A DNA stretch of 64,000 bases. Source: Christensenellales bacterium. GTDB taxonomy: Bacteria > Bacillota > Clostridia > Christensenellales > CAG-917. The translations under genes and the position numbers were made by a program. The stretch lies in assembly GCA_045130665.1 (NCBI GenBank), contig JBGUQC010000004.1, forward strand, positions 635,217 through 699,216. Reading direction: 5' to 3'. How positions within the stretch are numbered: position 1 is the first letter of the stretch; each line of letters starts with the position of its first letter. The notes under the pieces were generated by a model that was not told where the DNA came from, searched no databases, and saw only the letters and a list, made by a program, of their open reading frames with translations. Shown here piece after piece: positions 38,823 through 54,657 of the stretch.

Positions 38823-38836
38823 CGGTCAATTCTCCT

Positions 38837-39199: not shown

Positions 39200-39285
39200 C
39201 GTCAACCTCCCATAAATGTTTAGTCGTATCAATACGATACAGTATATCTCTCGCTTTGTCAAGCTCTTTTTTCAACTTTCTTCAG

Positions 39286-40593: not shown

Positions 40594-40639
40594 TATATCA
40601 AAGATAACCGGTGATTTGTTTTGTTCTATAATGATTTCC

Positions 40640-40730
40640 TCCTTTTGTTAGTGTGTTTTCCCGTTGTCAAAACGGTTGTCGGGTATCCCGAAACCGTAAA
40701 TCCTTTTGCGGTGAAACTGCAAAAGCTTAG
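40640..40730. other. Candidate oriT region upstream of the relaxase gene
   Basis: TAGTGTGTT lies at 40648-40656. GTTGTC direct repeats sit inside a CCCG...CGGG bracket at 40660-40683. A 7-bp inverted repeat CTTTTGC/GCAAAAG lies at 40703-40725. Confidence 0.3.
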
Positions 40731-40788
40731 CCTGCTTACTTTTTCCTCTTTTTTGCTTCACTTTTGCTTGCAACTTTGCTTTCACGTT

Positions 40789-41493: not shown

Positions 41494-41849
41494 TTACTTC
41501 CTCCTTATTTGTGTTTTTGTTTGCCGCCGTTTAACGACCGTCGGCACGTCATTCAGTTGTGCATACGCATCACCTCCCGTTTGATTGATTCGCCCACAAA
41601 AGGGCATAAAAAAGCCGCCGATATGTCCTACCGCCGACTTTGATATTTGTTGTTCAGTTGTGGTTGTCGCTTTCTTTATTACGTCATCAATTACATCTCC
41701 TTGTCAGATTCATAGCATACGAAAACGGAAGTCTTGTGCAGACTCCCGCCTTTGTTGCGTTATTCAGTTTGTCGAGCGAAACGTTTATTCCCCTCTATAA
41801 TATAGCCAGGAGAGCGTTGAAAAATCGTACCCCCTGTTAAAAATTCCGA

Positions 41850-42434
41850 TTATTTGCCGAAAAGTACCTTTAATAAACGCAGTTGTGCTAATTCTTCTTC
41901 AGTTTGTTTTAAGGCGCGCTCGCGCTCTCTCTTACGCTTTCGCGCTTCCTTTCTCTTCTGCCGTTTCTTCCCTTTCTTGGCTTCGATGGCTTGCAAACGG
42001 AGTTTTTCGAGGTTCTCTTCCGCTTTCAGAATGAGTTTGCGGACGGCGCCTTCCGTCACGCCCATCTCTTTGGCAATATCGACTTTCTTCATTTCAAGAT
42101 ACTTGAACTTGAAGTAAGCTTGCGCCTGCCGCGCCGTGAGCCGCGACTCCAACCATTTCTGTTTCCGCTCCAGTCGCTCGTCTTCCATCTGAGCCAATTC
42201 TTCTTCGAGTTCTTCTTCTTCGCGTTTCTCCCACACGGTCTCAATATCCGAATTAGGATCGGCGAACTCAAAACCCGCTTCTTCGAGCATATCCAAAGAA
42301 ACGTGCCGCCGCGTTTCTTTCCGGTTCACTTTCTGCTCGTATTTCTCAAGCTCGTAGAACACTTCCGCGACTTCGTCCGTTACTTCCAATTCTTCTTTAT
42401 GCCCATCGGCAAAGGTGTATAAAATCGTTTTCAT
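41850..42434 (-). CDS. Sigma-70 region-4-like HTH protein
   Basis: LTARQAQAYFKFKYLEMKKVDIAKEMGVTEGAVRKLILKAEENL is a region-4/LuxR-type HTH. It is followed by a Lys/Arg/Glu-rich tail. Confidence 0.55.
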   Translation of the reverse strand: MKTILYTFADGHKEELEVTDEVAEVFYELEKYEQKVNRKETRRHVSLDMLEEAGFEFADPNSDIETVWEKREEEELEEELAQMEDERLERKQKWLESRLTARQAQAYFKFKYLEMKKVDIAKEMGVTEGAVRKLILKAEENLEKLRLQAIEAKKGKKRQKRKEARKRKRERERALKQTEEELAQLRLLKVLFGK

Positions 42435-42450
42435 TTTATCGATTATTCAG

Positions 42451-44781
42451 CTATTTTATCATTATAATTGCGCCAGTATATGTATCTATTTTGTATTTAA
42501 TTTCTATATTTAAGATGACATACTCTTTATGTAATGCTCTTGCAACATCTTCCCTTGACATAAAAATGCTTTTATAGACATATTGACCATCAGGACGTTT
42601 ATACTTTTCAACTTCTTGTTCTAGATTTTCTCCGTCCAAATCATCGGCCTCAAACTTTACGATGTTACAATTAAAAGAGAATCCATCTTTTAAAATGAAT
42701 ACCGGCTTAAAGAAAATGTGGCTCTTAATCTTTTCTGCTTTTTCCATTTTCTTTTGATAAGATTGTTTTATCTCCTCATCTTTAATAGCATACCAATGAC
42801 GAATAGCTCCGCCATTAACGTACTGAATGTTCTTTGTCAGTAGATCTTTTGCATGTTCATCAAAAAGGTTTTCTCTTTCTATAATTTCTACATAATCATT
42901 TTCAATTTTAGTCCCTATTTCATGCAGAATTCCCCGAACGAATGAATCAATGATAACTTCGTCAAAATTGATCGCATCTGATGCTCTTTCGCACAAAACG
43001 GAAAGATATCTTGATTGTTCGTTTTTAATGTCTATAGCTTTATTAAAGCCCCATTCTTCCTCAACTTTACTTTCTATAGCAGGACCATATTTGTTTTCTA
43101 TATCCCTATTGCTGACTTTAGATGCTTGTTTAATCGTTTCCTCCAACTCATCCTTTTTCAACTCATCTAAATACGATTTAAAAGTATGTTCTCTTTCTTC
43201 CAAATTAATAAAAGCATCAAATACCGTTTGGTCTAATGAATAAAAGCCTACCATTTTTATCATTTTTTCAGAAGGGTGAAAACTCATGCCATCAAAGCAC
43301 TGTTTTTCAAACTCTTTTAGGTGAAAACTTATTTTCTCAAACAAACTCTTGTAATCATAATCATATATCTTCTCACTCAAAAACAGAGTTGTCAAGAACC
43401 AATCTGAAGCAAAATTCTCATCCAAAACAACGCTGTGCATAAATCCACTATAAAGCATAAATTCTAAAATAGAACTGTTTTCATTGAAAATTGTCATAAA
43501 GTCATTATAATTAGCGGCACAATTTTGCACATAGAACTTGAACATATTATTCCAAGAAACTATCGCTGTATTATCGGTAACCCCTGAATAAGCCATGAAG
43601 TCCTTAATATGCTCTTTTACAGTCTCAGTGGTATCTATCTCGCATTCTGCCAAATAGTATAAATACATACTTATAAGAGCAAACATTGTGGTTGATAACG
43701 AATCACTCCCTAGCATAAAATAGTTGACTGAATAATGCTTCCTAATTGTTTCCAGCAGATAAAAATCATTATATTTGATAGTAGTAGACAGGATTGATAG
43801 AATAACAGCTTCCGTAAAACAATCTTTTGTGCTTAAAGTCTCCTCATGTTTATTATAAAAAGACAATAAACCAGCAATAAATTCGGCTGTTTTTTCTCGA
43901 GATTGCGTATTCATCAACAATCTATAGATTGTCCTAGAAACATAATGTTTGCAGTTTGTTATTTCATCACCAATTATTGTGTAGATGTCAAAGTTCCACC
44001 ACAGAATATCCGAAACCGAATCGGTTAAAGCACGAGCAACCGTCTTAAATTCCTTATGATCGTTTATTGTATCAAGATCGAATGATGTTTTTTGTAGGTA
44101 ATCTAAAAGAGAATACAATACCTTTTTGTTATATTCGGGATAATCATCCTCTTTTAGCGCATCATATACAACACTAATATTCTTATCTTTTAACTGAAAA
44201 GAAACAGCTTTGTCAAAATCTATAGACAAAGGATCTGTTGCCTTTAAGGGAACGATGAATCTATTTTTGATGATTTTTTGCATGGCTTTTTCACTTGCCA
44301 TCATATATGGAATTTCCATATACAAAATATAAATACAAAAAATAAAAATCGCCAATGTAATACCCATGCACAATACCATTTGAGAGCATAAGTAAAAAAT
44401 GACATCCAAGAATAATGTGCTAAACGATATTATAGCACAAGCCCTCAGTGAGAAATGCTTGTCTACACGCATAGAGTATAGTTTACTTACTGTAATTCCG
44501 AATTGCTCATTATGTTGCAAAGAAACAGAAATACCCAAGATCGATACTATACAACAGACTATAGCCGCTATAACTTGACAAGAAATGCCTATTGCATTAA
44601 CAATAGATTCGCAACCATTCAACCAACGAAAGTGTTGCTCTATTATATCTAACACTATTGAAACAACGAGCAATATAACTGTAATTGAAATAATGAAATA
44701 GAATGAACCATTCTTTATTGCAGGAAACAACAGTTCGCTGCCTTTATTGTTTGAGTTTTTCTTTTCTTCCGTATCTCCCAT
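42451..44781 (-). CDS. 776-aa protein: four N-terminal TM helices plus a ~600-aa cytoplasmic domain with no recognisable motif
   Basis: Long uninterrupted ORF that starts 4 nt after the helicase-MTase stop. I found no Walker, PLD, HD, TIR or SIR2 motif. Composition is AT-rich, unlike its neighbours. Confidence 0.6.
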   Translation of the reverse strand: MGDTEEKKNSNNKGSELLFPAIKNGSFYFIISITVILLVVSIVLDIIEQHFRWLNGCESIVNAIGISCQVIAAIVCCIVSILGISVSLQHNEQFGITVSKLYSMRVDKHFSLRACAIISFSTLFLDVIFYLCSQMVLCMGITLAIFIFCIYILYMEIPYMMASEKAMQKIIKNRFIVPLKATDPLSIDFDKAVSFQLKDKNISVVYDALKEDDYPEYNKKVLYSLLDYLQKTSFDLDTINDHKEFKTVARALTDSVSDILWWNFDIYTIIGDEITNCKHYVSRTIYRLLMNTQSREKTAEFIAGLLSFYNKHEETLSTKDCFTEAVILSILSTTIKYNDFYLLETIRKHYSVNYFMLGSDSLSTTMFALISMYLYYLAECEIDTTETVKEHIKDFMAYSGVTDNTAIVSWNNMFKFYVQNCAANYNDFMTIFNENSSILEFMLYSGFMHSVVLDENFASDWFLTTLFLSEKIYDYDYKSLFEKISFHLKEFEKQCFDGMSFHPSEKMIKMVGFYSLDQTVFDAFINLEEREHTFKSYLDELKKDELEETIKQASKVSNRDIENKYGPAIESKVEEEWGFNKAIDIKNEQSRYLSVLCERASDAINFDEVIIDSFVRGILHEIGTKIENDYVEIIERENLFDEHAKDLLTKNIQYVNGGAIRHWYAIKDEEIKQSYQKKMEKAEKIKSHIFFKPVFILKDGFSFNCNIVKFEADDLDGENLEQEVEKYKRPDGQYVYKSIFMSREDVARALHKEYVILNIEIKYKIDTYTGAIIMIK

Positions 44782-44785
44782 ATAT

Positions 44786-47700
44786 TTACTCCATAGGTTT
44801 GATCATCGCCTCGATGAAAGCGATTTCGGATTCATCGAGGTTGTATATAGCGTATAATTGCTTGTCGATCTCGGGAACAGACTTCGACCAATCAATATCG
44901 GACTTGGCGGTAAAGTCTTGCATGGGAACAAACTTCCAGACTTTTTTTGTATTGTCTTGGGTGACTTTTAATATGCCCAACAATGTCCTTGCAAATTTCG
45001 ACTTAATATATTTCAAAACAGCTTCGGCTTCTGATTTCGAAGATGTTTCTCCCGCAGAAATATAGGTTTCGGTATAGCCGATCAACGGCGAGCCGATCAA
45101 CGGCGTAGATAACACTTCTCCAATTGCGCCCGATCCATTTGCTTTAGGAAACATAACTTTATACTTGTATAGATTATCTATTGGCGCCAAGTAGTCTTTC
45201 CTAAACCACCTATACACTCTATTGCTCCCAATATTCCCAAGCAATTGAATGTAGTCTTTACCATCATTAGGCTTATCCACTGTAAACAAAGCCGGCATAC
45301 GCTCAAATGCACTGGTTGAGATTCTTCTATCGGATGTTTTCTTCATCTCTTCAGGATGTTCTTCGTAAACTAAATCAGAAAACCTATATTGACCTCTGTT
45401 CAAAATAGTATCCGCGAAACTCTCGGTTGTTATAGCCCAAACTTTATTCTTGATGCTGTTTAACTCTTCATAGGAACAATACATTCCTATTGCGCCAAAG
45501 TTTGTCTTTGAATCTCTGTATGTAATTGCCACGCCACCCTTGATATCTACGTTGGGAAATACCTCGGAACTATCAGAAGTATAATACAAAACTTTGAAGT
45601 GTTCGTCCGAAAGAACTTTTTCATTCCAACTTGAAGGCGTTGCACCGGCATTGAATAAGAAACGAGCAGGCGTTATAAAACTAACTTTTTCTGACAACCT
45701 AAACGCAACATCCATGAACAGGTGATATATCGGTTTATCATTAACCGAACTTGCAACCGCTTCTTGATACGGCGGGTTTCCTACTACTGCGTCGAATTTC
45801 ATTTCTGCTACTCCTTTATTCCAATAACTGCCTCTCGTGACTTTTGCGCGGAATTGTTCCGGTTTCTCTTTTAGTTGGTTGATTAAGTCCTCAAAATAGT
45901 GGGCGTTTGCCTTTGTGCCGGAATATCCACAAAGGGTACGAATGGTGATATATTTTGCCATTTCCGTCTTGCAAATAACGAAGACGTTTTCTTTTACGGT
46001 CAAGTTCCATAGTTCGCGTTGTTTTTCGAGCGTCAATTCCTCTTGGCACTCCTCGCAACGCTTACGGTATATGCTGTAGGTGACGTACAACGGATACAAG
46101 CCTGTTTTGGAATTGATCTCCAATATCCGCGCGGAGGTATTGGCGAGCGTATCCGACGTCACTTTGCCGCGATCGACAAAACGAGGTTCTTCTATCGTTT
46201 CCTCGTGGTTTTCGTCGTAGAAATCATACCCGCCCAAACAATCGCTAATGTGCATATTGACGACGCGCCACGGCGTAAGCACCGTTTCTTTGTCGGGATT
46301 CTTGAAAGTAGCAAACAAAGCGGATATCTTTTGCACTCTTTCGGTGGGAGAGAGTAAGTCGGCGGCTTTTGCCAATTGACGGATACGACGACCGGCGGCA
46401 ATGAAGATATCGGCGTCATAATATTTTGCAAACTTTTTGAAAAGTTCTTTGGTGACGCCTTGCCCCTTGTTCTCCTTATCCTTCGACTCGTTCTTGGGCA
46501 TAAACTCTTTCCAAGATGCGTCGTCGATCAGATCGGTGAAGTTGTCGATGGTAATATCCTTATCAATAGGAATGTTCGCGCCGTAAATCAAAAGCGGTAT
46601 GCGTACGGATATGCCGCGCAAAATGGAAATGGCTTTTTGTTTATTATCTTGTTTCTTCTTTTTCTCCTCAAGGAAAGCGATCTCTTCGGGTGTGCGCTCT
46701 TTTTTCGGTTTACGCTCGATTCGTTCCAACTCCTCGTATTCTTCATCGGTAAACCCTTGATTGTTGACGTCAACGGTTTCCACTTTTTTGGATTGTTTAC
46801 TTGCGCCGATGATCTTTTTCAAGTCTTCAAAGTCTTTGAGTTCCAGTCCATCCAACTTCATCAGGTTGTCGTTGTAAATATGGATATCGTCGAAGCCGTT
46901 GCGGACAACCCTATCGGTATAGACGCGCTTGAGTTGTTGCAACAATCCGTCCACGTTATAGGGGAGCATATTGGAGCCTTCCACTGCAATAACGGGGCAG
47001 AAGTTGAGGAACTCGCCCATGATCACTTTATCACTGGATGTATCGCCGGCTCGTGTGGAAAGCCGTCCGGCTTCGGCAACGACTTTCAATGTCCTATCCG
47101 GCGCAAAGTCAAAGACATAGCATTCTTCTTTGATCTTACCGTTGATATTGGCGGGCGACTGCACACGGAAAATGGTCTGCATATAACTGGATGCAGACGT
47201 TGAAAACGTACCCGCAAGCATAAAGACCGCCGTCCATTCGGGAACGGTCACACCTGTAGTCAATCGACCACAAGAAAGAGTGATCGAATACGTTTCGGCG
47301 GGATTATCTCCGAAGGCGTCCTGCACCTTCTTCAACGCTTCGGCAGACTTTTCTTCCTCGTCGCCGCTTCCCGCGACGTTTGCGATATTAAAGTGTTTGA
47401 AAACAGGGTGCTGTTTGAGAAGCGCCGACAAAGCGCGGGCTTCTTTTACGCCCGGAACCATCCACAAAGAGTGACGGAAATAATTGCGATACTCTTCGGT
47501 AGAGTACGGGTAGTTGCTGTTTTCATCCGTCTTGCAAAGGAGATTGAGAAAACTCTCCACGTCGGCTTTGTGTACAAAGTCGCCGACTTTTGCATTCGAC
47601 GGAATCGCTTTGAAGTCCTTCTCGGGTTTTCCCGTCCAAGTGCGGAAGAACTCGTGGAAGTTGAAAGCGGAGTCCTCGGCGTCAATATATCCGGGGATCA

Positions 47701-48823
47701 ATTTATCAAGATTATAGGTGAAGATTTGCAGTTTGGGCAACGTCGCATAAGGATTACTGTCGCCAAAGTGATATTTGTCCCACTCGGCTTTCGCTTTCTG
47801 CTCCATCACATAATCCCACGTATAAATCTCTTGCTCGCTGAACTTGCTGACGATATTGAAGGGCGTACCCGACAATTCAAGAAGTTTCGGCTTCTTGGGG
47901 TGGTCGTTCAAAAGTTCTATAACCGTTTGACCGAGTTTCGTTTGCGTCCCTTCGTGCGCCTCGTCAATGATGACGAAATCCCATTCAATCAAAAACTCCA
48001 GTATGTTTTTATCGAATTTGCCGCCGACCGCTTCACTACCACGCAAATCTTGTATGGAAGCGAAATAAACGAACTTATTGTCGTCCTTTTCTATGAGTTT
48101 TTCAATTGTTTCGCCCTGCGTTTTCGAGCCGAATTGATAATCGGTATCGTAAAAGATCTTTTCAAAATCCTCGAACCAACCTTTACTGACAACGGGGCGG
48201 TGGGTAATAATGATCGTCTTTTGGAAGCCGCATTCCTTGGCGACTTGCAAGGCGGTCAAAGTTTTGCCGAAACGCATTTTTGCGTTCCAAAGCATATGGT
48301 CGTTGGTCTTAAATCTTGCGACCGTTTCTTTAATTGCTTTCTTTTGTTCGGGACGGAACAAAATAGGCGTTCTTCCTGTGGACACTTCCGTTGCCGTTAA
48401 AGATTTTCGACCTTCTTTAACTGCTTTGATCGCATTCTTTGCCGTTTCCAAATCAACGGGGAACCATTCGACGCCTTTCTTTTCATCCTTAAACTCATGG
48501 CGCGTAATGCCTGAGCGGATCAACACGGAATGAACCGCTTTATCAGAGAAAGAACGTAGTTTCTTTTTGCCATTGACCATTTCTTCGCGCACGGCAAGTT
48601 CCGTATACAGCAAATCGTAGGAGATCGCCGCCGTTTGCGTGTATTGGTCAATACGTTTCTTGGCGGCAACGTTTAATTCTCTGCAATTCGGGAAAAGCAA
48701 GTTGGGCGTTTTGTCCGAGCGTAAAGTGGCTTCGCCGATTTTCAGCAAGCCTTTATGTTCTTTGTCGTTTATGCCGAAGACATAAATCAACGTATATGTA
48801 AAGGTTGACGTAAACTGACTCAT
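44786..48823 (-). CDS. Single-polypeptide T5orf172(GIY-YIG-like) / SF2 helicase / gamma-class N6-adenine MTase / C-terminal specificity-like region
   Basis: N-terminus reads LIYVFGIND..GLLKIGEATL...VEWF. Helicase motifs are Walker A RFGKTLTA (GKT 48260-48268), DEAH IIDEAHEG (47954-47965) and LSGTPF. MTase motifs are ETVLTPWRVVNMH, ILEINSKTGLYPLY and VVGNPPYQ (NPPY 45767-45778). The tail is LYAIYNLDESEIAFIE. Confidence 0.8.
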   Translation of the reverse strand: MSQFTSTFTYTLIYVFGINDKEHKGLLKIGEATLRSDKTPNLLFPNCRELNVAAKKRIDQYTQTAAISYDLLYTELAVREEMVNGKKKLRSFSDKAVHSVLIRSGITRHEFKDEKKGVEWFPVDLETAKNAIKAVKEGRKSLTATEVSTGRTPILFRPEQKKAIKETVARFKTNDHMLWNAKMRFGKTLTALQVAKECGFQKTIIITHRPVVSKGWFEDFEKIFYDTDYQFGSKTQGETIEKLIEKDDNKFVYFASIQDLRGSEAVGGKFDKNILEFLIEWDFVIIDEAHEGTQTKLGQTVIELLNDHPKKPKLLELSGTPFNIVSKFSEQEIYTWDYVMEQKAKAEWDKYHFGDSNPYATLPKLQIFTYNLDKLIPGYIDAEDSAFNFHEFFRTWTGKPEKDFKAIPSNAKVGDFVHKADVESFLNLLCKTDENSNYPYSTEEYRNYFRHSLWMVPGVKEARALSALLKQHPVFKHFNIANVAGSGDEEEKSAEALKKVQDAFGDNPAETYSITLSCGRLTTGVTVPEWTAVFMLAGTFSTSASSYMQTIFRVQSPANINGKIKEECYVFDFAPDRTLKVVAEAGRLSTRAGDTSSDKVIMGEFLNFCPVIAVEGSNMLPYNVDGLLQQLKRVYTDRVVRNGFDDIHIYNDNLMKLDGLELKDFEDLKKIIGASKQSKKVETVDVNNQGFTDEEYEELERIERKPKKERTPEEIAFLEEKKKKQDNKQKAISILRGISVRIPLLIYGANIPIDKDITIDNFTDLIDDASWKEFMPKNESKDKENKGQGVTKELFKKFAKYYDADIFIAAGRRIRQLAKAADLLSPTERVQKISALFATFKNPDKETVLTPWRVVNMHISDCLGGYDFYDENHEETIEEPRFVDRGKVTSDTLANTSARILEINSKTGLYPLYVTYSIYRKRCEECQEELTLEKQRELWNLTVKENVFVICKTEMAKYITIRTLCGYSGTKANAHYFEDLINQLKEKPEQFRAKVTRGSYWNKGVAEMKFDAVVGNPPYQEAVASSVNDKPIYHLFMDVAFRLSEKVSFITPARFLFNAGATPSSWNEKVLSDEHFKVLYYTSDSSEVFPNVDIKGGVAITYRDSKTNFGAIGMYCSYEELNSIKNKVWAITTESFADTILNRGQYRFSDLVYEEHPEEMKKTSDRRISTSAFERMPALFTVDKPNDGKDYIQLLGNIGSNRVYRWFRKDYLAPIDNLYKYKVMFPKANGSGAIGEVLSTPLIGSPLIGYTETYISAGETSSKSEAEAVLKYIKSKFARTLLGILKVTQDNTKKVWKFVPMQDFTAKSDIDWSKSVPEIDKQLYAIYNLDESEIAFIEAMIKPME

Positions 48824-49797
48824 CTGTGCCTCCCGTCAAGCAAAGTGACGAACTTTACTTTCTTTCCCTTTTCCCAATCCATAACGTAACAATAAATGCC
48901 GTTATGACGGTTTCTGTTGTTTTTCAAACAGCCTTCGCATTCTTCGATTTTCGGCTCGTCGAATAAAGATAACTGCATTGATTCCATCTTGTGGCAACTG
49001 TTGGGAATGACGAATTTCAGTCCGTCCATCTGCCATATATTCCACGCAAGTATCTCGGCGATCTCGCGCAGGTATTCTCTTATCGGATACACACCGAACT
49101 TGTCTTCGTAGTAGTCGCAGAATGTAAAGAGTAGGTTTTCACGAGCGAGAAGGACGTTATCCCCCTGCCAGTCATAGCCGTAAATGCTCTTATATGCTTC
49201 TTTCGCCCACGCGTACCACTCTTGCTCGCCGTCGGTATTTTCGGAAACAATACGGAGTTTTCTGTCCAATAGCCCGATGCGGTTTTTAACGGGTATCACT
49301 TCGCCCGTAACGGTATCGTAGCGACTGGCAAGATAGGGCGCTTCGCCGCAGGTAATCTCAAGGCGTTGCGCCTTAACGTAGTCTTGCCACGTTTTGCCGT
49401 CGGGGAAGGTCAATTTTTCTTCATTTGTCATCCAACCTTTTTCCGTTTCGGTATTAAAGACGTTTTCATGCCCAAACCAAGCATTGTCGATGAGATTGTT
49501 TTGTTTATTGCATATCCACGATGGCGTGAATACTTCGGCTTTGTCACGGACACGAGAGAGTTGCTCTTGTTTGGTCTTCTCGGTGCGCGGCTTGATGAGA
49601 TTGCCGTTCGCTCCGGTGATGGCATAGACGTCGATATGGTCGTTTTTGCCGTAGCCGAAACCTTTTTGAGAATAGTTATCCGTAGCCCAAATGAGATTCT
49701 TACCCGAAGAATTGTCTTTGAGCAGAAAAGACAAAAGAGATGCGTCCATCTCCAGTATCTTATTCTCTTTTACATCAACTCTAATCTCTTTTGCCAT
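48820..49797 (-). CDS. MTase-fold-like protein lacking a catalytic (D/N)PP(Y/F) motif
   Basis: KAEVFTPSWICNKQNNLID is motif-X-like and RLEITCGEAPYL is motif-I-like (compare M.TaqI LEPACAHGPFL). YGYDWQGDNVLLARENLL is also present, with no NPPY anywhere. The stop overlaps the next start as ATGA. Confidence 0.5.
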   Translation of the reverse strand: MAKEIRVDVKENKILEMDASLLSFLLKDNSSGKNLIWATDNYSQKGFGYGKNDHIDVYAITGANGNLIKPRTEKTKQEQLSRVRDKAEVFTPSWICNKQNNLIDNAWFGHENVFNTETEKGWMTNEEKLTFPDGKTWQDYVKAQRLEITCGEAPYLASRYDTVTGEVIPVKNRIGLLDRKLRIVSENTDGEQEWYAWAKEAYKSIYGYDWQGDNVLLARENLLFTFCDYYEDKFGVYPIREYLREIAEILAWNIWQMDGLKFVIPNSCHKMESMQLSLFDEPKIEECEGCLKNNRNRHNGIYCYVMDWEKGKKVKFVTLLDGRHR

Positions 49798-49877
49798 TCG
49801 TTTTTTATCCTTATTTCTCCTGTCCTATTTTACCACTTTTCGTCGTAAAAATCAATGCCGCCGTAGCCCTACTATGA

Positions 49878-49906
49878 ATAATATCGTATCCATTTTACTT
49901 TGTAAA
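49878..49906 (-). promoter_or_regulatory. Promoter of the RM-like operon
   Basis: On the minus strand: TTTACA (49906-49901), a 17-nt spacer, then TATTAT (49883-49878). It lies about 80 nt upstream of the ATG at 49797. Confidence 0.5.
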
Positions 49907-49993
49907 CCGCCATCTGTCCCAATATGGGTACTCCTTGACTTATTCGTTTCGGAGCATATCAGCTTTCCTATTCCATACAAAGCACTCCCAACT

Positions 49994-50698
49994 CTAAATG
50001 CGTATTGTTAAGCTGTCTAACAAAACCCACTGTGTTTGATTTGAGTAATCAATTGTGCCTTCGTTTGCACAGTCGTTTATATCCATTGCGAATTTCATTC
50101 TGAACGGTTCAGACAAACAGTTTTTTAAGTTTATGATATTCGTCCACAAAGAACCGTTACCGTCGCCGAAACTACATTTCTTCAAATTCTTGTTGTCCAA
50201 CAAAAAACGATTATGGCTTACTTCGTTTCGCAATGCGATAACAGCGTCAAGGTCGCGAGATAGTTTATCAATTTTATTAAGATAAAGAGGGAATAACTCT
50301 TGCTTATCTGTTTCAGGCAACTTTTTCGCTTGCGATATCAATTGCCCGAACGTTAGGGAAGATAACGCGCTGAAAAAGCCATCGCCTGAATCCAAGTAAC
50401 GTTGTAACTGTAAAGTATGTATTATTGCTCCACTATTATCGCTATATTTGTTTGAAATAAACGCGCGAATGCTTTCTTCCAAAAGACCAATATATTTATA
50501 AAGAACACGACGTATCCGTTTATCGTAGCGGAAAGCGGTGGCAATTTCGGCATAAGAAACTTTTTCACCGGAAAGGCTTTCCAGGTGTTGGCGAACGTGA
50601 TCGTGTTCGTCAATGCCACGGTATTGAAGATAATGAACCGACTTCTTTTTCTCTTCTTCGGTTATTATTATTTTTTCCCAAAACTCTTCGTACGTCAT
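49994..50698 (-). CDS. Abi_2 (AbiD/AbiF-like) HEPN-domain protein
   Basis: FRYDKRIRRVLYKYIGLLEESIRAFI plus IALRNEVSHNRFLL. The latter contains the R-x4-H HEPN motif, R157..H162, at 50213-50230. Confidence 0.7.
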   Translation of the reverse strand: MTYEEFWEKIIITEEEKKKSVHYLQYRGIDEHDHVRQHLESLSGEKVSYAEIATAFRYDKRIRRVLYKYIGLLEESIRAFISNKYSDNSGAIIHTLQLQRYLDSGDGFFSALSSLTFGQLISQAKKLPETDKQELFPLYLNKIDKLSRDLDAVIALRNEVSHNRFLLDNKNLKKCSFGDGNGSLWTNIINLKNCLSEPFRMKFAMDINDCANEGTIDYSNQTQWVLLDSLTIRI

Positions 50699-50705
50699 AA
50701 TAAGG

Positions 50706-51326
50706 CTAATCGCAAATCTCGTTGATTGCTTGGATCAATATCGAAAACGAAGCAATATCATCTTGCTTGGACAAGTGCTGATTCTTCAACTTAAGATATC
50801 TCGCGCGCAAATCATTCCACTTTCCGGCGTCCTTTATCGCTTTGATTTTTGTTTGGTAATTACGCGAATTACGAACTTCATTCCAGTAATACTGTCCGGT
50901 CGCTTTATTGTGTACGATCTTCAGATAGTTGCCGTTGTTTCCTTCGCACATAATGGCAACGTCGAAAGAAAAGTGTAAGCGGTTCCCGAAAATCAACTTC
51001 GACGTTATCACCGAAGTAGAGTTTTCCGCAGGTTTAAAGCCCAAATCGGGATTCGTTTCGTTAAACGCTTGAATGAACAGTTCCTTTATCTTTTTGGGAT
51101 TGTTTATCAGCCCTTGCTTGTCCTTTTGTAGAATAAAATTGTAGTCCAGATCAAACTCGCCATTCTCTCCGTTTTGGGTGATAAGGTTATTGCTTCCACT
51201 ACCGATCAGAACGAATTGAAAAGTAAAGTAATCTTTAAGCCAACTCTGTTGAACGTTCTTAATAATGGTTTCGCAAGCGTTTTTTAATTCTCTTAATTCC
51301 TGTTTATCGTATACGTAATCAAACAT
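50706..51326 (-). CDS. Minimal Pol-beta-superfamily nucleotidyltransferase with a helical C-terminal region
   Basis: VLIGSGS-x13-DLD, with DLD at 51144-51152, gives the GS...DxD signature. A third acidic strand reads HFSFDVAIM. AGGAGA RBS. Confidence 0.65.
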   Translation of the reverse strand: MFDYVYDKQELRELKNACETIIKNVQQSWLKDYFTFQFVLIGSGSNNLITQNGENGEFDLDYNFILQKDKQGLINNPKKIKELFIQAFNETNPDLGFKPAENSTSVITSKLIFGNRLHFSFDVAIMCEGNNGNYLKIVHNKATGQYYWNEVRNSRNYQTKIKAIKDAGKWNDLRARYLKLKNQHLSKQDDIASFSILIQAINEICD

Positions 51327-51349
51327 TATTATTCTCCTAAAACATTTTT

Positions 51350-53224
51350 CTACCTTTTATCTTCTTTATAGCAAATTTCAGATTGTTTTCTGTAGAAAGC
51401 AATCCCAAGTTTCAAAATGCTATAGCCCTGCGCTTCAAGCGGATAGGCATATTCTTTTTCGTCGATTTGATTGAGCGCTTCTTGCGACAACGCGCAGAGT
51501 TCGTTCGTAATCGTATCGGCATTTTTACTTGTCGTAGACAGCACCTTAACTTCGATGATGATGGCGGGCATATTTTTATTGAATGGAACCATTTGGATAT
51601 CGAAACGACCATTGCCGGATTCCCGATTAGACGAAACAGAATACAAATCATTCATCACTGCGTACAGTCCCAACATCAAGCCGTGATAAAAGCCTTCGTT
51701 CGACGTATCGAAGAAACTTACCGTTTGTTTGAGATAGCGTTCGAGATGTTGTTTCATTCCGTTTATATCGTTATCGATAATCGCTTGTTGAACAGACGAC
51801 GCCGTAGATTGAGCGCGTGAGTCGCCGATCGCCGAAAGAATCTCTTTTCCATAGATCCGTTGGATCTCTTTGTTGGGAATGGAAACATAATAGAATGACG
51901 TTCCCGCGACGTTCGGACTCTTGTTTAGTTTCAAATAGCCGGCGATGAGCAGAAAACTGAATATCGTTTGAGGATTGTCCTTGATCTCGGGATAGATCAC
52001 CGAAGTGTCCACGTCGGCAAGAACCGACTTCCCTTCCAACAAGGCTTGTAACTTTTCTTTCGTTTCTACGGGCGATTCCAAAACGATCTGACGAATGATA
52101 TCATTGCTACCCGTGTTTTGCCAATAGGCTTGCGGTATACATTCGTTTTTGATATAACTGATGACTGACCACGGATTAAACATCTCGTTGGAGCCGAAGC
52201 GATACCCGTCGTACCATTCGCACACTTCGCCGAACTTGCTTTTCTTGCCATAAGCGGCGAGAAGCGTTTTGACTTCTTCCTTCGTAAAACCGAAGTACGT
52301 GCTATAACGCTCTTTCAGTACCGAATTATCGATGAGATTATTCATGCCGCTGAAAATGCTTTCTTTTGCGACGCGCAAAATACCCGTCATAAAACCGAAT
52401 GAAAGATGTGAATTATCTTTGAATCCGCCCGAAAACAAATTGCGCATAAACACAATGATTTTCTCATAATACTTTTTCGTATATCCTTGTTGAATCGGAG
52501 TATCGTATTCGTCGATGATAATGACAGGTGCTATATCGTAATAGTCATGCAACATCTTCGACAACCTTGCAAGTGCTTCGGTCAATTCTACTTCCGTTTC
52601 ATTGCCGGACAATAGTTTGTTGTAATAAACGATCTCGTTTTTATCCGCTTTCGCATTCTCGCCGATAATTTCTTTATGGCGAATAAACTCTGTTTGAAAC
52701 AGCGACTTTATTTTAGCAAAGGTATCTTCCCATGTATCGAACTTAACGTCCTTAAAAGAAAGGTAGATCACGGGATATTTCCCTTGATAAGAGGTGTATT
52801 TCTCTCCGTATGCCCATATTCTTTTATCGGCAAAATAACGAGACGTATCCTCATCGCTCTTCTCAAAAAACACGCGAAGCATATCCATCGTCAATGTTTT
52901 TCCGAAGCGACGGGGGCGCGTAAACAAGCTGACCTTGGGGAGATCGTCCAATATGTCTTTGATTAGATCGGTCTTATCCACGTAATAATAATGACTAACA
53001 GCTTCTTTGAAATCTGACACGCCGATAGGAAGCGGCTTCCGTAAATTTATCAAAGCTCCTCTTTTCGTTCTCCCGTCTACCGGCTTTTCCGCATTCACAG
53101 GTATTAACCACATTCCATTCTCTTTTTTCGCTCCAATGATTTTACCATCACGACAAAGCATTGTGATTCTGCGTTCTTCTAATTCCCATTTTTCAGCAGC
53201 TTCTTGCACATTAATGAAATCCAT
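51350..53224 (-). CDS. HTH + AAA-ATPase_like + PD-(D/E)XK (PDDEXK_9-like) protein
   Basis: N-terminal excisionase/MerR-like HTH (INVQEAAEKWELEERRITMLCRDGKI). Then PIGVSDFKE....YYYVDKT...TRPRRFGKTLTMDML (Walker A). The C-terminal GNGRFDIQM....AIIIEVKV is a D...ExK nuclease motif. Confidence 0.75.
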   Translation of the reverse strand: MDFINVQEAAEKWELEERRITMLCRDGKIIGAKKENGMWLIPVNAEKPVDGRTKRGALINLRKPLPIGVSDFKEAVSHYYYVDKTDLIKDILDDLPKVSLFTRPRRFGKTLTMDMLRVFFEKSDEDTSRYFADKRIWAYGEKYTSYQGKYPVIYLSFKDVKFDTWEDTFAKIKSLFQTEFIRHKEIIGENAKADKNEIVYYNKLLSGNETEVELTEALARLSKMLHDYYDIAPVIIIDEYDTPIQQGYTKKYYEKIIVFMRNLFSGGFKDNSHLSFGFMTGILRVAKESIFSGMNNLIDNSVLKERYSTYFGFTKEEVKTLLAAYGKKSKFGEVCEWYDGYRFGSNEMFNPWSVISYIKNECIPQAYWQNTGSNDIIRQIVLESPVETKEKLQALLEGKSVLADVDTSVIYPEIKDNPQTIFSFLLIAGYLKLNKSPNVAGTSFYYVSIPNKEIQRIYGKEILSAIGDSRAQSTASSVQQAIIDNDINGMKQHLERYLKQTVSFFDTSNEGFYHGLMLGLYAVMNDLYSVSSNRESGNGRFDIQMVPFNKNMPAIIIEVKVLSTTSKNADTITNELCALSQEALNQIDEKEYAYPLEAQGYSILKLGIAFYRKQSEICYKEDKR

Positions 53225-53254
53225 TTGCTTGGCTCCTATATGTTAATCATCTAT

Positions 53255-53283
53255 ATTATATACATTCGCAGGTGGCATGTCAA
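53255..53283 (-). promoter_or_regulatory. Consensus SigA promoter of the AAA/NTase/HEPN operon
   Basis: On the minus strand: TTGACA (53283-53278), exactly 17 nt, then TATAAT (53260-53255). The ATG at 53224 is preceded by TAGGAG. Confidence 0.65.
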
Positions 53284-53333
53284 GATAGATGTCAAGTTAT
53301 TTTCGCCAAATGTTAAGTTATATGTCGAGATAT
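53277..53333. repeat. Four copies of a 12-bp motif ATGTYRAGWTAK arranged as two tandem dimers
   Basis: ATGTCAAGATAG (53277-88), ATGTCAAGTTAT (53289-300), a 9-bp gap, ATGTTAAGTTAT (53310-21) and ATGTCGAGATAT (53322-33). The first copy contains the -35 hexamer. Confidence 0.6.
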
Positions 53334-53417
53334 GCCGATAAAATATTTAAATATATATTAAAAAAACCAGAAACCCTATCAAAAGCCTATTGTAAAATCA
53401 TATAAAAAACATTTTTC

Positions 53418-54551
53418 CTATTCAGCTTTTATTACGGCTACATACTTTGATCCAAACATATGATCTGAATAAAAATCAGTCCACGTGTTAATAGATGCTA
53501 CCGCATTGACATGTCTGATTAATATTCCGTCCATCTCAAGTTCTTTTCGTTTGTTAATTATGTAAGAATGTAAATCATTAAAGTCTAATACAATTCCATT
53601 TCCTAACACGTTAATGCTTGTTCTTTTCAAAACTGTTTTTTCTTGCAAATACGCTTTCGGATTCTCTCTTTCTGAAAACCTCTTTGTGCATTCGATGGTA
53701 TCTACAAGCGACATAAGCATTAATAGTTTATTCTCTATTGTTACTCTTTTAGGCGAAGTCGAAAGCAAATTAAATAAAGAATATCTCCTATAAATAGCAT
53801 CTTTTTCTGCACTGTCAGATTTAAATATATTATGTGTTGCTGCAATAAAACAAGCTATCTTTTGTTCTTTCATAATAGCAGGACTAGGATAAATACCAGT
53901 CATGCCATTTTTCAATTTCGTTTTCAAGTCTCGCTCAACTTTTTTGCAATAATTGGAAAAAACGAGTGCACCTCCAATAATACCATGATCATTCTTTTCG
54001 TTCTTATCATTTTTTAATTGCTCTTTCCTATATTGGAAATAATTTAAAACCTCGTCATAAGTATATGAGAAAAAACACTTTGTTTCTTCGATTATGGACA
54101 TATTGTTTAAATATCTGAACTCTCCGCTTCCATAATCATCCATAAATAGATTATGCTCTTTAATAAGGTTTTCTATCTGTAAATCTTCATCTTTGACTTC
54201 CTTCCTAAAATAACCGTAATCATGCGTTATTGCTGTTTGTAGCCATATTCTTCCAAAATATAGCGATCCTACGCCAGCGGGATATTTGTTCAATTGAAAA
54301 GTATCAGCTAACGCAACACCCAACAACCAAGTTACCATAATATGTGTTGCCCGTTGTTTGTTAAAAATAATCGCATTCGGATCATCGTCCAAAATACATT
54401 TAATAAAATCCACACAAAGGTTACAATCGTTAATAACTTTTTCAAAGGAATTGAACTTTATTATCTTGTACTCTTCTTCATCAAGACCTATATGCAAGTT
54501 CAACAGATTATTGTATGTTTGTTCTATAAACTTATATAAAGACAATTTCAT
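53418..54551 (-). CDS. Hypothetical protein with an HD-domain-like His/Asp pattern
   Basis: 377 aa with ..RATHIMVTWLLG...LQTAITHDYGYF...NDHGIIGGALVF...AATHNIFKSD, which fits an H..HD..H..H..D layout. AT-rich gene at the island edge. The assignment is tentative. Confidence 0.4.
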   Translation of the reverse strand: MKLSLYKFIEQTYNNLLNLHIGLDEEEYKIIKFNSFEKVINDCNLCVDFIKCILDDDPNAIIFNKQRATHIMVTWLLGVALADTFQLNKYPAGVGSLYFGRIWLQTAITHDYGYFRKEVKDEDLQIENLIKEHNLFMDDYGSGEFRYLNNMSIIEETKCFFSYTYDEVLNYFQYRKEQLKNDKNEKNDHGIIGGALVFSNYCKKVERDLKTKLKNGMTGIYPSPAIMKEQKIACFIAATHNIFKSDSAEKDAIYRRYSLFNLLSTSPKRVTIENKLLMLMSLVDTIECTKRFSERENPKAYLQEKTVLKRTSINVLGNGIVLDFNDLHSYIINKRKELEMDGILIRHVNAVASINTWTDFYSDHMFGSKYVAVIKAE

Positions 54552-54657
54552 AGGTTCACTTCATGGATAGTATTTTTCTTGCTTTTTTAAAACAGCTACT
54601 CAAGCACTTGAGTATGCGATGCCAATCATATGATCATCACGTTTTGTTTTGGAATGT

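What the first reader, a model, noticed from the sequence alone, without database searches (positions are those of the whole stretch)
48820..49797. Upstream partner looks like the front half of an adenine MTase without the catalytic motif
Seen: KAEVFTPSWICNKQNNLID resembles MTase motif X (G.V.TP..V...M). RLEITCGEAPYL resembles motif I (M.TaqI LEPACAHGPFL). YGYDWQGDNVLLARENLL resembles the motif II/III region. No (D/N)PP(Y/F/W) tetrapeptide occurs in the 325 aa, and the C-terminus carries a Cys cluster (ECEGC...CYVMDW). The gene is translationally coupled (ATGA) to the helicase-MTase. Inference: it may be a SAM- or DNA-binding MTase-derived subunit that acts as a specificity or sensing partner rather than a second methylase. 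Alternatively it could be a highly diverged endonuclease.
Basis: partly seen in the sequence, partly recalled or inferred. Interest (0 to 1): 0.55.

Follow-up and report, generated by a model that had tools for sequence, protein, structure and literature searches.

The report
Detached front half of a DNA methylase
This 325-residue protein is the cofactor-binding front half of an adenine DNA methylase, made as a separate subunit of a widespread two-gene helicase-type restriction system; the catalytic and DNA-reading back half sits at the end of the neighbouring gene and is probably also translated on its own.

Summary
ORF 48820-49797(-) encodes 325 aa with MTase motifs X, I, II and III. It has no (D/N)PP(Y/F/W) and no PP at all, and its stop overlaps (ATGA) the start of a 1345-aa T5orf172-like/helicase/Eco57I-MTase gene.

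- **Homology.** Pfam, NCBIfam and PDB sequence searches find nothing. A profile comparison links it (98%) to 226-260-aa "N-6 DNA methylase" half-proteins with canonical motifs. Its AlphaFold model matches phage N-6 methylase halves (E=1.5e-14).
- **Fused relatives.** About 30 cluster representatives among the best 150 hits are 650-717-aa chains: this module followed directly by MKFDxVxGNPPYQ and a back half 47% identical to the big protein's C-terminus.
- **Conservation.** Putative SAM-contact residues are invariant or conservatively substituted in split and fused forms.
- **The puzzle.** The big protein has its own non-canonical front half (Lys in the G-loop, no motif II acid).
- **Likely resolution.** A conserved internal Shine-Dalgarno plus ATG sits exactly at the back half's start (window ATG 45802-45800). 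A Bifidobacterium plasmid encodes that half as a separate gene.

Best reading: small protein plus free back half form the methylase, and the full-length protein restricts. This is a new variant of Type ISP/III-like restriction-modification and is untested experimentally.

The parts
48820..49797 (-). Gene S: 325-aa half-methyltransferase (front half only: motifs X, I, II, III; no motif IV)
   Evidence: ORF. PADLOC PDLC03390 'MTase_II' full length, E=2e-125. AF2 pLDDT 92.9, pTM 0.92. hhalign 98% to canonical half-MTases. BFVD Foldseek E=1.5e-14.
49486..49542 (-). Motif X (KAEVFTPSWICNKQNNLID, residues 86-104)
   Evidence: E88 is invariant in 84/84 homologues; T91 82/84 (S in 2); P92 81/84. Aligns to GEVFTPQW of the lactococcal half-MTase.
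49330..49365 (-). Motif I / strand beta1 plus cofactor loop (RLEITCGEAPYL, residues 145-156)
   Evidence: Strand 145-148 in the model. E147, C150, G151, E152 and P154 invariant in 84/84; A153 83/84. Aligns to LEPAAGDGNFL.
49129..49185 (-). Motif II / strand beta2 with acidic end (IYGYD, then WQGDNVLLARENLL; residues 205-223)
   Evidence: Strand 205-209. Position 209 is D or E in 84/84; G212 and D213 invariant. Aligns to YGIEFLADN.
49018..49044 (-). Motif III / strand beta3 (WNIWQMDGL, residues 252-260)
   Evidence: Strand 254-256. N253, Q256, M257 and G259 invariant; D258 in 80/84. Aligns to NIVRGNTL.
48904..48996 (-). Cys/His cluster C268, C287, C290, H298 (probable zinc ribbon), enclosing the QLSLFD motif (275-280)
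   Evidence: Conserved in 51-52 of 54 split homologues but only 12-13 of 30 fused ones. QLSLF is shared with the short half-MTases. Metal binding was not tested.
48850..48891 (-). C-terminal beta-hairpin CYVMDWEKGKKVKF with near-invariant [DN]W
   Evidence: Strands 304-307 and 312-315. W308 in 83/84; D/N307 in 79/84. In fused homologues the NPPY half follows 6-50 residues later.
48820..48823 (-). ATGA stop/start overlap between S and L (translational coupling)
   Evidence: Read from the sequence.
44786..48823 (-). Gene L: 1345 aa, T5orf172-like domain + SF2 helicase + own front half (N') + NPPY catalytic half + TRD
   Evidence: Pfam ResIII, DEAD and Eco57I. PADLOC REase_MTase_IIG. T5orf172 E=0.0017, 19.3 bits, just under the cut-off of 20.
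48419..48757 (-). T5orf172-like (GIY-YIG-superfamily) N-terminal domain of L, residues 23-135; candidate nuclease
   Evidence: Sub-threshold Pfam match covering profile positions 11-100 of 101. Nuclease activity is inferred only.
46904..48358 (-). SF2 helicase/translocase region of L (about residues 156-640)
   Evidence: Pfam ResIII 156-322. 35% identity to the type-A helicase over residues 13-644.
45878..46291 (-). N': L's own non-canonical front half. X' KETVLTPWRVVNM (845-857), I' ILEINSKTGLYP (899-914), II' VFVICKTE (946-964), III' YFEDL (974-982)
   Evidence: Alignment of 59 homologues: Lys in the G-loop 56/59, Gly 59/59, no acid at the end of beta2 in 0/59, T/S two residues later 59/59. 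The Pfam Eco57I profile matches from its position 1.
45811..45817 (-). Internal Shine-Dalgarno-like AAAGGAG, 8 nt upstream of the in-frame ATG of Met1008
   Evidence: Sequence. Duplex energy -8.2 kcal/mol. The site is enriched across homologues.
44786..45802 (-). Back half: MKFDAVVGNPPYQ (NPPY at 45767-45778), motifs IV-VIII and TRD; predicted free 338-aa product from ATG 45802-45800
   Evidence: 47% identical to residues 367-710 of the fused homologue P0129. Hypervariable cassette after NPPYQ. A separate gene with its own SD in B. longum. The internal start is inferred, not shown.
49827..49906 (-). Promoter-like hexamer pairs upstream of S (TTTACA-17-TATTAT; TTGATT-17-TAAAAT)
   Evidence: Consensus scan only. 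The number of such sites in the region is not above shuffles.

Best explanation
S is the SAM-binding N-terminal half (helix X plus strands beta1-beta3, motifs I-III) of a gamma-class N6-adenine DNA methyltransferase that is split at the motif III/IV boundary. It cannot methylate alone. The catalytic and DNA-reading half (motif IV NPPY to VIII plus TRD) is encoded at the 3' end of the downstream gene L. I propose that this half is made in two forms. One is the C-terminus of full-length L, where it sits behind a second, non-canonical front half N' tethered to a helicase and a T5orf172-like putative nuclease. The other is a free 338-aa protein started at a conserved internal SD+ATG (Met1008). S plus the free back half would assemble into the modification enzyme, equivalent to the single-chain 650-717-aa homologues. 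Full-length L would be the ATP-dependent, Type ISP-like restriction enzyme. Both use the same TRD sequence, so modification and restriction always share specificity, and swapping one cassette changes both. What is shown: homology, the missing motif, the fused, split and three-gene arrangements, conservation, and the SD+ATG signal. What is inferred: internal initiation, the S/back-half assembly, SAM binding, and the division of labour between S and N'. My confidence by sub-claim: S is an MTase front half without a catalytic motif, about 0.95; S is an obligatory partner of L, about 0.9; the internal start is used, about 0.6; the whole model as stated, about 0.5.
For: (1) S is an MTase front half. 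hhalign gives 98% probability, E=1.9e-13, to 230-aa partners with canonical EPAAGDGNF, YGIE and GN motifs; one of these passes Pfam N6_Mtase over profile positions 20-105 of 311. Foldseek against BFVD finds a 173-aa 'N-6 DNA Methylase' at E=1.5e-14, TMt 0.86, rmsd 1.9 A.
(2) Fused homologues consist of the S module followed by MKFDxVxGNPPYQ and a back half. P0129 residues 367-710 are 47% identical to L residues 1007-1344. The AF2 model of P0129 is one confident body (pLDDT 91.6, pTM 0.89) and matches whole adenine MTases: BrxX 9e-10, CamA 3.5e-9 with TMt about 0.5, TaqI 1.9e-4.
(3) Putative SAM-contact residues (E88, T91, P92, E147, G151, D/E209, D258) are invariant or conservatively substituted in both 54 split and 30 fused forms. 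N' lacks the motif II acid in 59/59 sequences and has Lys in the G-loop in 56/59.
(4) Internal start. SD-like energy is -6 or lower at 54% of the conserved start codons, against 5.5% of 1576 other internal Met codons (p=2e-15). The signal is stronger than a synonymous-recoding null in non-Bacteroidota (-7.9 vs -5.9, p=1e-7) and absent in Bacteroidota. It is also present in fused M genes that have a helicase partner and absent in an orphan phage copy.
(5) On the B. longum plasmid the back half is a separate gene: a stop codon, then AAAGGAG, 7 nt, then ATG AAG AAG TTC...GGC AAT CCT CCA TAT.
(6) Phage PTm1 keeps S and an intact ORF starting at MKFD, but has no helicase and a frameshifted N'.
(7) A half-MTase gene lies beside every L homologue inspected: about 51-53 of 80 genome loci (the remainder mostly truncated contigs or other arrangements) and 7 of 7 further plasmids.
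Against: No experiment, proteomic datum or ribosome-profiling datum was available.
- The SD-like motif could be a relic of cassette exchange from three-gene ancestors, or partly a by-product of a Gly/Glu/Lys-rich linker. The synonymous null already averages -5.9, and single-gene p-values are modest (median 0.22).
- In L, N' precedes the NPPY half with canonical spacing and is recognised by Pfam Eco57I from profile position 1. L may therefore be a complete methylase by itself.
- N' motifs are well conserved, not decaying.
- The tools return no coordinates or PAE, so I could not verify that strand beta1 of the S module pairs with beta4 in the fused model, nor co-fold S with L.
- Short-type partners carry a vestigial (S/N)EW at the motif IV position, which fits a degenerate whole-MTase paralogue as well as a clean half.
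Confidence: 0.5

Rival explanations
1. Accessory pseudo-methylase. L's own N'-NPPY domain is the only methyltransferase. S is a catalytically dead, SAM-binding MTase-like subunit that docks on it and licenses or tunes methylation or restriction. Analogues are DNMT3L or METTL14, the non-catalytic Mod protomer of Type III enzymes, or a SAM sensor.
For: N' and the NPPY half are contiguous with canonical spacing and match Pfam Eco57I positions 1-171. N' residues are strongly conserved. S models as a compact fold on its own (pTM 0.92) with large extra elements. Short-type partners retain a degenerate motif IV (S/N)EW, as expected of a decayed paralogue. Partner-dependent activation of defence MTases has precedent in BrxX (PMC11842806) and MANTIS (bioRxiv 10.64898/2026.09.23.753747).
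Against: It does not explain why fused homologues place S directly in front of an NPPY half and model as one canonical MTase. It does not explain the conserved internal SD+ATG, the separate back-half gene in B. longum, or phage PTm1 keeping S plus the MKFD-ORF while N' is frameshifted. The pattern is complementary: S has canonical SAM residues but no NPPY, whereas L has NPPY but no motif II acid. That is the opposite of known pseudo-MTase partners, which lose SAM binding.
Confidence: 0.28
2. Trans-complementation without a free back half. S pairs with the NPPY half inside full-length L, displacing or bypassing N'. The holoenzyme S-L is then a single bifunctional restriction-modification enzyme.
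For: The same evidence as for the split-MTase reading. ATGA coupling suggests about 1:1 synthesis of S and L. An all-in-one fusion, S module-T5orf172-helicase-N'-back half, exists (L020 and P0145).
Against: A cis N' immediately upstream of beta4 should out-compete a trans partner during folding. It leaves N' and the internal SD+ATG unexplained.
Confidence: 0.08
3. S is a complete but unorthodox methyltransferase that uses a cryptic catalytic motif, for example the near-invariant [DN]W at 307-308.
For: [DN]W follows a hydrophobic strand and is conserved in 79-83 of 84 homologues. REBASE-derived PADLOC models label the family 'Type II methyltransferase'.
Against: The protein ends 17 residues later, with no strands beta5-beta7 and no TRD. 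Fused homologues keep [DN]W and still add a canonical NPPY half. In short-type partners the aligned residues are D-V/I-Y-K, not a motif IV pattern.
Confidence: 0.03
4. S is a diverged restriction endonuclease, or a decaying fragment of a broken fused methylase gene.
For: NCBI names some homologues 'restriction endonuclease'. An IS256-broken fused or adjacent arrangement exists in B. longum.
Against: There is no nuclease family, fold or motif in the Pfam, NCBIfam, PHROGs, PDB or Foldseek searches. The fold and profile are MTase front half. The split form is the majority arrangement across several bacterial phyla and one archaeal MAG, with invariant residues and intact ORFs, so it is not a pseudogene.
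Confidence: 0.03

Closest known systems
Type ISP restriction-modification enzymes (LlaGI, LlaBIII)
   Same: Nuclease, SF2 translocase, gamma-class adenine MTase and C-terminal TRD in one long polypeptide (definition from PMC3874165). LlaGI and LlaBIII are among the Foldseek matches of the fused homologue. Both are plasmid-borne in lactic acid bacteria.
   Different: The nuclease candidate is T5orf172/GIY-YIG-like, not Mrr. An obligatory separate half-MTase gene accompanies the big gene. The in-chain front half is non-canonical. There is a probable internal start for the back half. No sequence-level hit to LlaGI or LlaBIII was found in PDB searches.
Type III restriction-modification (Mod + Res, e.g. 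EcoP15I)
   Same: The related 'type A' arrangement is a methylase gene carrying the TRD, followed by a coupled helicase-nuclease gene that has no TRD of its own. The helicase matches Pfam ResIII.
   Different: The MTase is gamma-class with a C-terminal TRD rather than beta-class. The putative nuclease is N-terminal. The helicase protein ends in an orphan MTase front half. In the window the back half has moved onto the helicase protein.
Eco57I/MmeI-type gamma-class adenine MTases (Type IIG/IIL MmeI, DrdV, BpuSI; BREX PglX/BrxX; orphan CamA; M.TaqI)
   Same: The fold of the fused homologue matches them at E=1e-9 to 2e-4. Motif order is X-I-II-III-IV...TRD. The back half hits Pfam Eco57I.
   Different: The front half is unrecognisable to Pfam and carries about 85 extra N-terminal residues, a 27-residue insertion after motif I and a Cys/His ribbon. 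The domain is cut into separate polypeptides at the motif III/IV boundary.
Naturally split DNA methyltransferases M.AquI and M.EcoHK31I (recalled from my own knowledge; not tested here)
   Same: One catalytic MTase domain assembled from two polypeptides.
   Different: Those are C5-cytosine MTases split at a different place. They have no helicase partner and no second competing front half.
McrB-L / McrB-S of McrBC (recalled from my own knowledge; not tested here)
   Same: A restriction gene yields a full-length product and a shorter product from an in-frame internal start.
   Different: McrB-S is an N-terminally truncated GTPase subunit that modulates activity. Here the short product would be the catalytic/TRD half of a methylase.
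PADLOC PDLC03390 'MTase_II' / NCBI 'restriction endonuclease subunit M'
   Same: S matches this REBASE-derived model end to end (E=2e-125). Homologues carry that NCBI name.
   Different: These are predicted labels. The model covers only the front half (327 positions), and I found no functional description in the literature searches.

Membership tests
Gamma-class N6-adenine DNA methyltransferase (complete enzyme) | SAM-binding motifs X, I, II and III on helix X and strands beta1-beta3 | tested here: met
   Strands 145-148, 205-209 and 254-256 end in E147, D209 and D258. hhalign 98% to canonical halves. Foldseek BFVD E=1.5e-14.
Gamma-class N6-adenine DNA methyltransferase (complete enzyme) | Catalytic motif IV (D/N)PP(Y/F/W) after strand beta4 | tested here: not met
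   No such tetrapeptide and no PP dipeptide in the 325 aa. It is present only in the extra half of fused homologues and in L.
Gamma-class N6-adenine DNA methyltransferase (complete enzyme) | Strands beta5-beta7 (motifs V-VIII) and a target-recognition domain | tested here: not met
   The model ends after a hairpin at 304-315. These elements occupy residues 372-711 of P0129 and 1008-1345 of L.
Gamma-class N6-adenine DNA methyltransferase (complete enzyme) | Curated family model passes threshold (Pfam N6_Mtase, Eco57I or MmeI_Mtase; NCBIfam) | tested here: not met
   No Pfam hit even at E<=10 and no NCBIfam hit. Only the REBASE-derived PADLOC model matches.
Gamma-class N6-adenine DNA methyltransferase (complete enzyme) | Binds S-adenosylmethionine and transfers methyl to adenine N6 | not testable with these tools
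   Needs ITC or crosslinking and methylome assays.
Type ISP restriction-modification enzyme (applies to the S-L system) | Single polypeptide with all functions | tested here: not met
   A separate half-MTase gene is always adjacent.
Type ISP restriction-modification enzyme (applies to the S-L system) | N-terminal Mrr-like PD-(D/E)XK nuclease | tested here: not met
   The N-terminus gives only a sub-threshold T5orf172 match (E=0.0017) and no Mrr match.
Type ISP restriction-modification enzyme (applies to the S-L system) | SF2 translocase followed by gamma-MTase and TRD | tested here: met
   ResIII/DEAD at 156-322 and Eco57I at 945-1089. The C-terminal 250 aa are homologous to the TRD region of fused MTases.
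Type ISP restriction-modification enzyme (applies to the S-L system) | ATP-dependent translocation and cleavage between head-to-head sites | not testable with these tools
   Biochemistry required.
Restriction endonuclease (PD-(D/E)XK, HNH, GIY-YIG, PLD) | Recognisable nuclease fold or catalytic motif in S | tested here: not met
   No family, PDB-sequence or fold match to any nuclease.
Zinc ribbon | Four conserved Cys/His ligands on two knuckles | tested here: inconclusive
   C268, C287, C290 and H298 are conserved in 51-52 of 54 split homologues but absent from the Enterococcus and Pediococcus versions and from most fused versions. Metal binding was not tested.

The most novel reading that the evidence does not exclude
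This family of ATP-dependent restriction-modification systems discriminates modification from restriction by sharing one catalytic/TRD half-domain between two alternative Rossmann front halves. One is a canonical SAM-binding half (S), giving the methylase. The other is a non-canonical half lacking the ribose-binding acid, tethered to helicase and nuclease (N'), giving an adenine-flipping reader that triggers restriction. The shared half is supplied in two copies by dual translation: full-length L plus a product from a conserved internal start. A single cassette swap would then re-programme both activities at once.
Probability: 0.35. Interest if true: 0.8.

Novelty: new variant of a known kind. 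Interest (0 to 1): 0.62.

Why it matters
The pair is not a curiosity of one genome. Relatives of S were confirmed in at least 587 matched stretches from a one-genome-per-species collection, spanning Clostridia, Bacilli, Bacteroidales, Treponema, Opitutales and one archaeal MAG. L homologues occur on 88 plasmids, including dairy Lactococcus, Enterococcus faecium resistance plasmids and Lactobacillaceae, and in phages.

Annotation pipelines call the small protein variously 'subunit M', 'restriction endonuclease', 'N-6 DNA methylase' or 'hypothetical'. Defence-finder HMMs count it as a Type II methylase.

If the split-enzyme model is right, three things follow. It explains how these systems keep methylation and restriction locked to one specificity cassette. 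It gives a natural example of a Rossmann MTase assembled from separately translated halves. It predicts that methylome assignments for these systems need both genes. It also suggests how phages such as PTm1 could copy only the methylase parts as counter-defence.

Tried and rejected
- **Direct family searches.** Pfam, NCBIfam and PHROGs scans of S were empty, even at Pfam E<=10. phmmer and a 60-sequence profile against PDB sequences gave nothing meaningful (CheY at E=0.5) or nothing at all. phmmer of L residues 840-1345 against PDB gave nothing.
- **S alone against PDB structures.** No significant hit; the best is E=0.26. The result is used only as a trend.
- **S module versus N'.** hhalign gave only a 21-column motif X match at 2% probability. 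I therefore do not claim that S and N' are detectable paralogues.
- **Co-folding.** I could not co-fold S with L or obtain coordinates or PAE, so which front half pairs with beta4 remains unresolved. This was my main dead end.
- **[DN]W or (S/N)EW as a functional motif IV.** Considered and rejected as unsupported.
- **Third operon gene.** The 776-aa downstream gene and the AbiD-like and other neighbours are not conserved in related loci, so they are not part of the system.
- **MANTIS/Gao_RL, BREX, Hma.** Different gene sets, and no PADLOC hits to them.
- **Literature.** Six full-text searches and four papers found no description of this two-gene family. pCV56A is merely counted as an 'apparently complete Type II system' (PMC6458302).

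Full report
**1. The observation**

ORF 48820-49797 on the minus strand encodes 325 aa. A regular-expression check finds no (D/N)PP(Y/F/W) and no PP dipeptide at all.

Its stop codon overlaps the ATG of the next gene (…AGATGAGT…). That gene, 44786-48823 and called L here, encodes 1345 aa. It has a ResIII/DEAD helicase at 156-322 and an Eco57I-type methylase at 945-1089, with NPPY at 1016-1019. Its N-terminal 150 aa give a sub-threshold but near full-length T5orf172 match (E=0.0017).

The region lies in a higher-GC island (up to 47% against about 34%). The island carries a large serine recombinase, TnpV, DUF6291 and a sigma-70 region 4 protein. It also carries an AbiD-like gene and an AAA-ATPase_like/PDDEXK_9 gene.

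**2. What the small protein (S) is**

Direct family searches fail. Pfam finds nothing even at E<=10, and NCBIfam, PHROGs and PDB sequence searches are also empty. Only a REBASE-derived PADLOC model, 'MTase_II' of 327 positions, matches end to end (E=2e-125). The family is very large: at least 8000 hits in a capped search and 1823 representatives of 50%-identity clusters.

Three independent lines show that S is the front half of a gamma-class adenine methylase.

- **Fused homologues.** About 30 of the 150 best cluster representatives are 650-717-aa proteins. They consist of this module followed, 6-50 residues after the point where S ends, by MKFDxVxGNPPYQ and a C-terminal half that hits Pfam Eco57I. 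P0129 residues 367-710 are 47% identical to L residues 1007-1344 (E=8e-101).
- **Canonical short partners.** L homologues on lactic-acid-bacterial, staphylococcal and Lysinibacillus plasmids are accompanied by 226-260-aa partners. These have fully canonical motifs: GEVFTP, FLEPAAGDGNFL, YGIE and G(D/N)xL. The S profile aligns to one of them motif by motif (hhalign 98%, E=1.9e-13). That protein passes Pfam N6_Mtase, but only over profile positions 20-105 of 311.
- **Structure.** The AlphaFold2 model of S is confident (pLDDT 92.9, pTM 0.92). Strands at 145-148, 205-209 and 254-256 end in or are closely followed by E147, D209 and D258, which is the Class I MTase pattern. Against viral predicted structures it matches a 173-aa 'N-6 DNA Methylase' (E=1.5e-14, TMt 0.86, rmsd 1.9 A). 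Against the PDB no match is significant, but the seven best are all PglX/BrxX, LlaGI, DrdV or MmeI.

The fused homologue P0129 models as one body (pLDDT 91.6, pTM 0.89). It matches whole adenine methylases: BrxX at 9e-10, CamA at 3.5e-9 with TMt about 0.5, then DrdV, M.BseCI, BpuSI, MmeI, LlaGI and TaqI.

**3. Arrangements of the system**

Call the front half N, the NPPY/TRD half C, and the T5orf172-helicase part H.

- **Type A.** An N-C gene followed by a coupled gene for H. H ends in its own motif X/I/II/III half (N') and stops about 25 residues after motif III.
- **Type B (the window).** An N gene followed by an H-N'-C gene. In a Pediococcus plasmid, C is fused exactly where type-A helicases end.
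- **Type C.** Everything in one chain, N-H-N'-C (L020 and P0145).

Among the 80 genome loci closest to S, about 51-53 are type B, two or three are type A and one is type C. The rest are truncated contigs or frameshifts. Host taxa span Clostridia, Bacilli, Bacteroidales, Treponema, Opitutales and one Methanomethylophilaceae MAG. None of the window's other neighbours is conserved with the pair.

**4. The puzzle**

Every system has two front halves (N and N') but apparently only one C.

N carries invariant or conservatively substituted SAM-type residues in both split (n=54) and fused (n=30) forms. N' is also conserved but non-canonical. It has an acid at the motif I position in 59/59 sequences and Lys in place of the first loop Gly in 56/59. 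No acid sits at the end of beta2 in any of the 59, and a Thr or Ser lies two residues later in 59/59. Pfam recognises N'-C as a contiguous Eco57I domain from profile position 1.

N and N' are not detectably related beyond motif X. C is hypervariable immediately after NPPYQ, while its first 13 residues are conserved in all arrangements. It therefore behaves as an exchangeable cassette.

**5. A likely resolution: the C half is also made on its own**

The conserved first residue of the cassette is Met in most sequences. Of the 59 sites scored, 54 carry ATG, GTG or TTG at this position.

In the window the sequence reads AAUAAAGGAGUAGCAGAAAUGAAAUUCGAC. That is AAAGGAG, 8 nt, then ATG at 45802-45800.

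Across those start-type codons, the anti-SD duplex energy upstream averages -5.8 kcal/mol, against -1.7 for 1576 other internal Met codons of the same genes. It is -6 or lower at 54% of sites against 5.5% (Mann-Whitney p=2e-15).

In non-Bacteroidota genes the observed energy (-7.9) beats a synonymous-recoding null (-5.9; Wilcoxon p=1e-7). In Bacteroidota, which as far as I know do not rely on SD pairing, there is no signal (-1.9 against -2.1). Taxa were assigned from record titles.

The same SD+ATG is present inside type-A N-C genes that have a helicase partner (-8.7 to -9.5). It is absent from an orphan fused copy in Fusobacterium phage FNU4, which has no helicase gene.

On a Bifidobacterium longum plasmid, C is literally a separate gene. 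The sequence is the N stop codon, then AAAGGAG, 7 nt, then ATG AAG AAG TTC TAC GCC ATC ATC GGC AAT CCT CCA TAT. An IS256 interrupts it further downstream, and the helicase gene follows.

Tenacibaculum jumbo phage PTm1 keeps S, an HTH gene and an intact ORF annotated from the MKFD Met. It has no helicase, and its N' remnant is frameshifted in an A-run.

**6. Mechanism proposed**

S plus the free 338-aa C half would form the modification methylase, equivalent to the fused 650-717-aa proteins. Full-length L would be a Type ISP-like restriction enzyme: T5orf172-like putative nuclease, translocase, N'-C and TRD. Both use the same TRD sequence.

In type-A systems the roles of 'fused' and 'free' C are simply exchanged. 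ATGA coupling places S synthesis ahead of L, as is usual for methylase-first operons.

The following steps are inferred, not shown:
- internal initiation at Met1008;
- assembly of S with the free C half;
- SAM binding by S;
- weak or absent SAM use by N';
- nuclease activity of the T5orf172-like domain.

The main rival is that L's N'-C is the only methylase and S is an activating or sensing pseudo-methylase. My weights are about 0.5 for the split model with a free C half, 0.28 for the accessory model, 0.08 for trans-complementation inside full-length L, and small remainders for the others.

**7. Comparison with known systems**

The closest kinds are Type ISP enzymes and Type III Mod/Res systems. 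Type ISP shares the domain order but has an Mrr nuclease, a single chain and canonical motifs (PMC3874165). Type III resembles the type-A gene logic but differs in MTase class and nuclease position.

The MTase itself belongs with the Eco57I/MmeI/PglX/CamA fold group. S on its own fails the membership test for a methyltransferase: it has no motif IV, no beta5-beta7 and no TRD.

Partner-dependent activation of defence methylases has recent precedents in BrxX (PMC11842806) and MANTIS (bioRxiv 10.64898/2026.09.23.753747), but those are different gene sets. I found no description of this two-gene family in six full-text searches. The lactococcal example on pCV56A is only counted as an 'apparently complete Type II system' (PMC6458302).

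**8. Verdict**

The functional guess is partly right: S is a partner subunit and not a stand-alone methylase, but it is most likely the cofactor half of the real methylase rather than a specificity or sensing module.

The gene family is already catalogued under predicted labels. The split at the motif III/IV boundary, the two competing front halves and the conserved internal start appear to be undescribed. I rate this a new variant of a known kind, with interest 0.62.

Noticed in passing
window 36607-54650: The pair sits in an island of about 18 kb with raised GC (up to 47% against about 34%). The island carries a large serine recombinase (36607-38280), TnpV (38837-39262), a 435-aa protein with no family hit (39286-40593), DUF6291 (40789-41493) and a sigma-70 region 4 protein (41850-42434). 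It abuts the 3' end of an rlmD/RumA-like tRNA/rRNA U5-methyltransferase gene (54658-56310), whose ORF has about 100 extra C-terminal residues. It looks like an integrative mobilisable element inserted at that gene.
   Followed up: partly
window 42451-44781 (-): A 776-aa protein with several predicted N-terminal membrane helices starts 4 nt after the stop of L. It has no Pfam, NCBIfam, PADLOC or PHROGs hit and is absent from all related loci. It may be an independent defence cargo gene.
   Followed up: partly
window 49994-54551 (-): Upstream of S lies a run of defence-like genes: an AbiD/Abi_2-like gene (49994-50698), a 206-aa protein with a GS...DLD pattern typical of nucleotidyltransferases (50706-51326; no family hit), an AAA-ATPase_like + PDDEXK_9 protein (51350-53224) and a 377-aa protein without hits (53418-54551).
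   Followed up: partly
L099 (Tenacibaculum phage PTm1, NC_049340) 4236-7002: A lytic jumbo phage carries an S homologue (51% identity), an HTH gene and a 'DNA methyltransferase' ORF annotated from the MKFD Met, but no helicase. The N' remnant upstream is frameshifted in an A-run. This is a possible methylase-only counter-defence copy.
   Followed up: partly
L002 (B. longum plasmid NZ_CP065398) 6899-13714: The front half and the NPPY half are separate genes with an AAAGGAG SD between them. The NPPY gene is interrupted by IS256 right after NPPYQ..., and a 1113-aa helicase gene follows.
   Followed up: yes
L genes of 59 homologues; window 44789-45763: The sequence immediately after GNPPYQ is hypervariable: many unrelated 'flavours' of motifs V-VIII plus TRD combine freely with three flavours of N'. 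This suggests cassette exchange at the conserved MKFD...GNPPYQ boundary.
   Followed up: partly
window 48958-48975 (S residues 275-280) and short partners in L091-L097: A QLSLF(D/E) motif is shared by all small partners, both the long S-type and the short 226-260-aa type, although the surrounding C-terminal regions differ. It is a possible docking peptide.
   Followed up: no
L095 (L. brevis ATCC 367 plasmid 2), L093 (L. amylolyticus pL6-1): The half-MTase gene can lie downstream of L instead of upstream: overlapping L's stop in L. brevis, and two genes away in L. amylolyticus. Gene order is therefore not fixed.
   Followed up: no
L001, L004-L006, L099: A small HTH (HTH_3/XRE-type) gene often precedes the pair, like the controller proteins of restriction-modification operons. 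The window has none between 49798 and 49993.
   Followed up: no
L064, L066-L068, L074, L023, L027: Where the conserved cassette-start residue is Val, its codon is GTG in 7 of 8 cases. This is compatible with use as a start codon, but five of the cases are closely related Bacteroidales.
   Followed up: no
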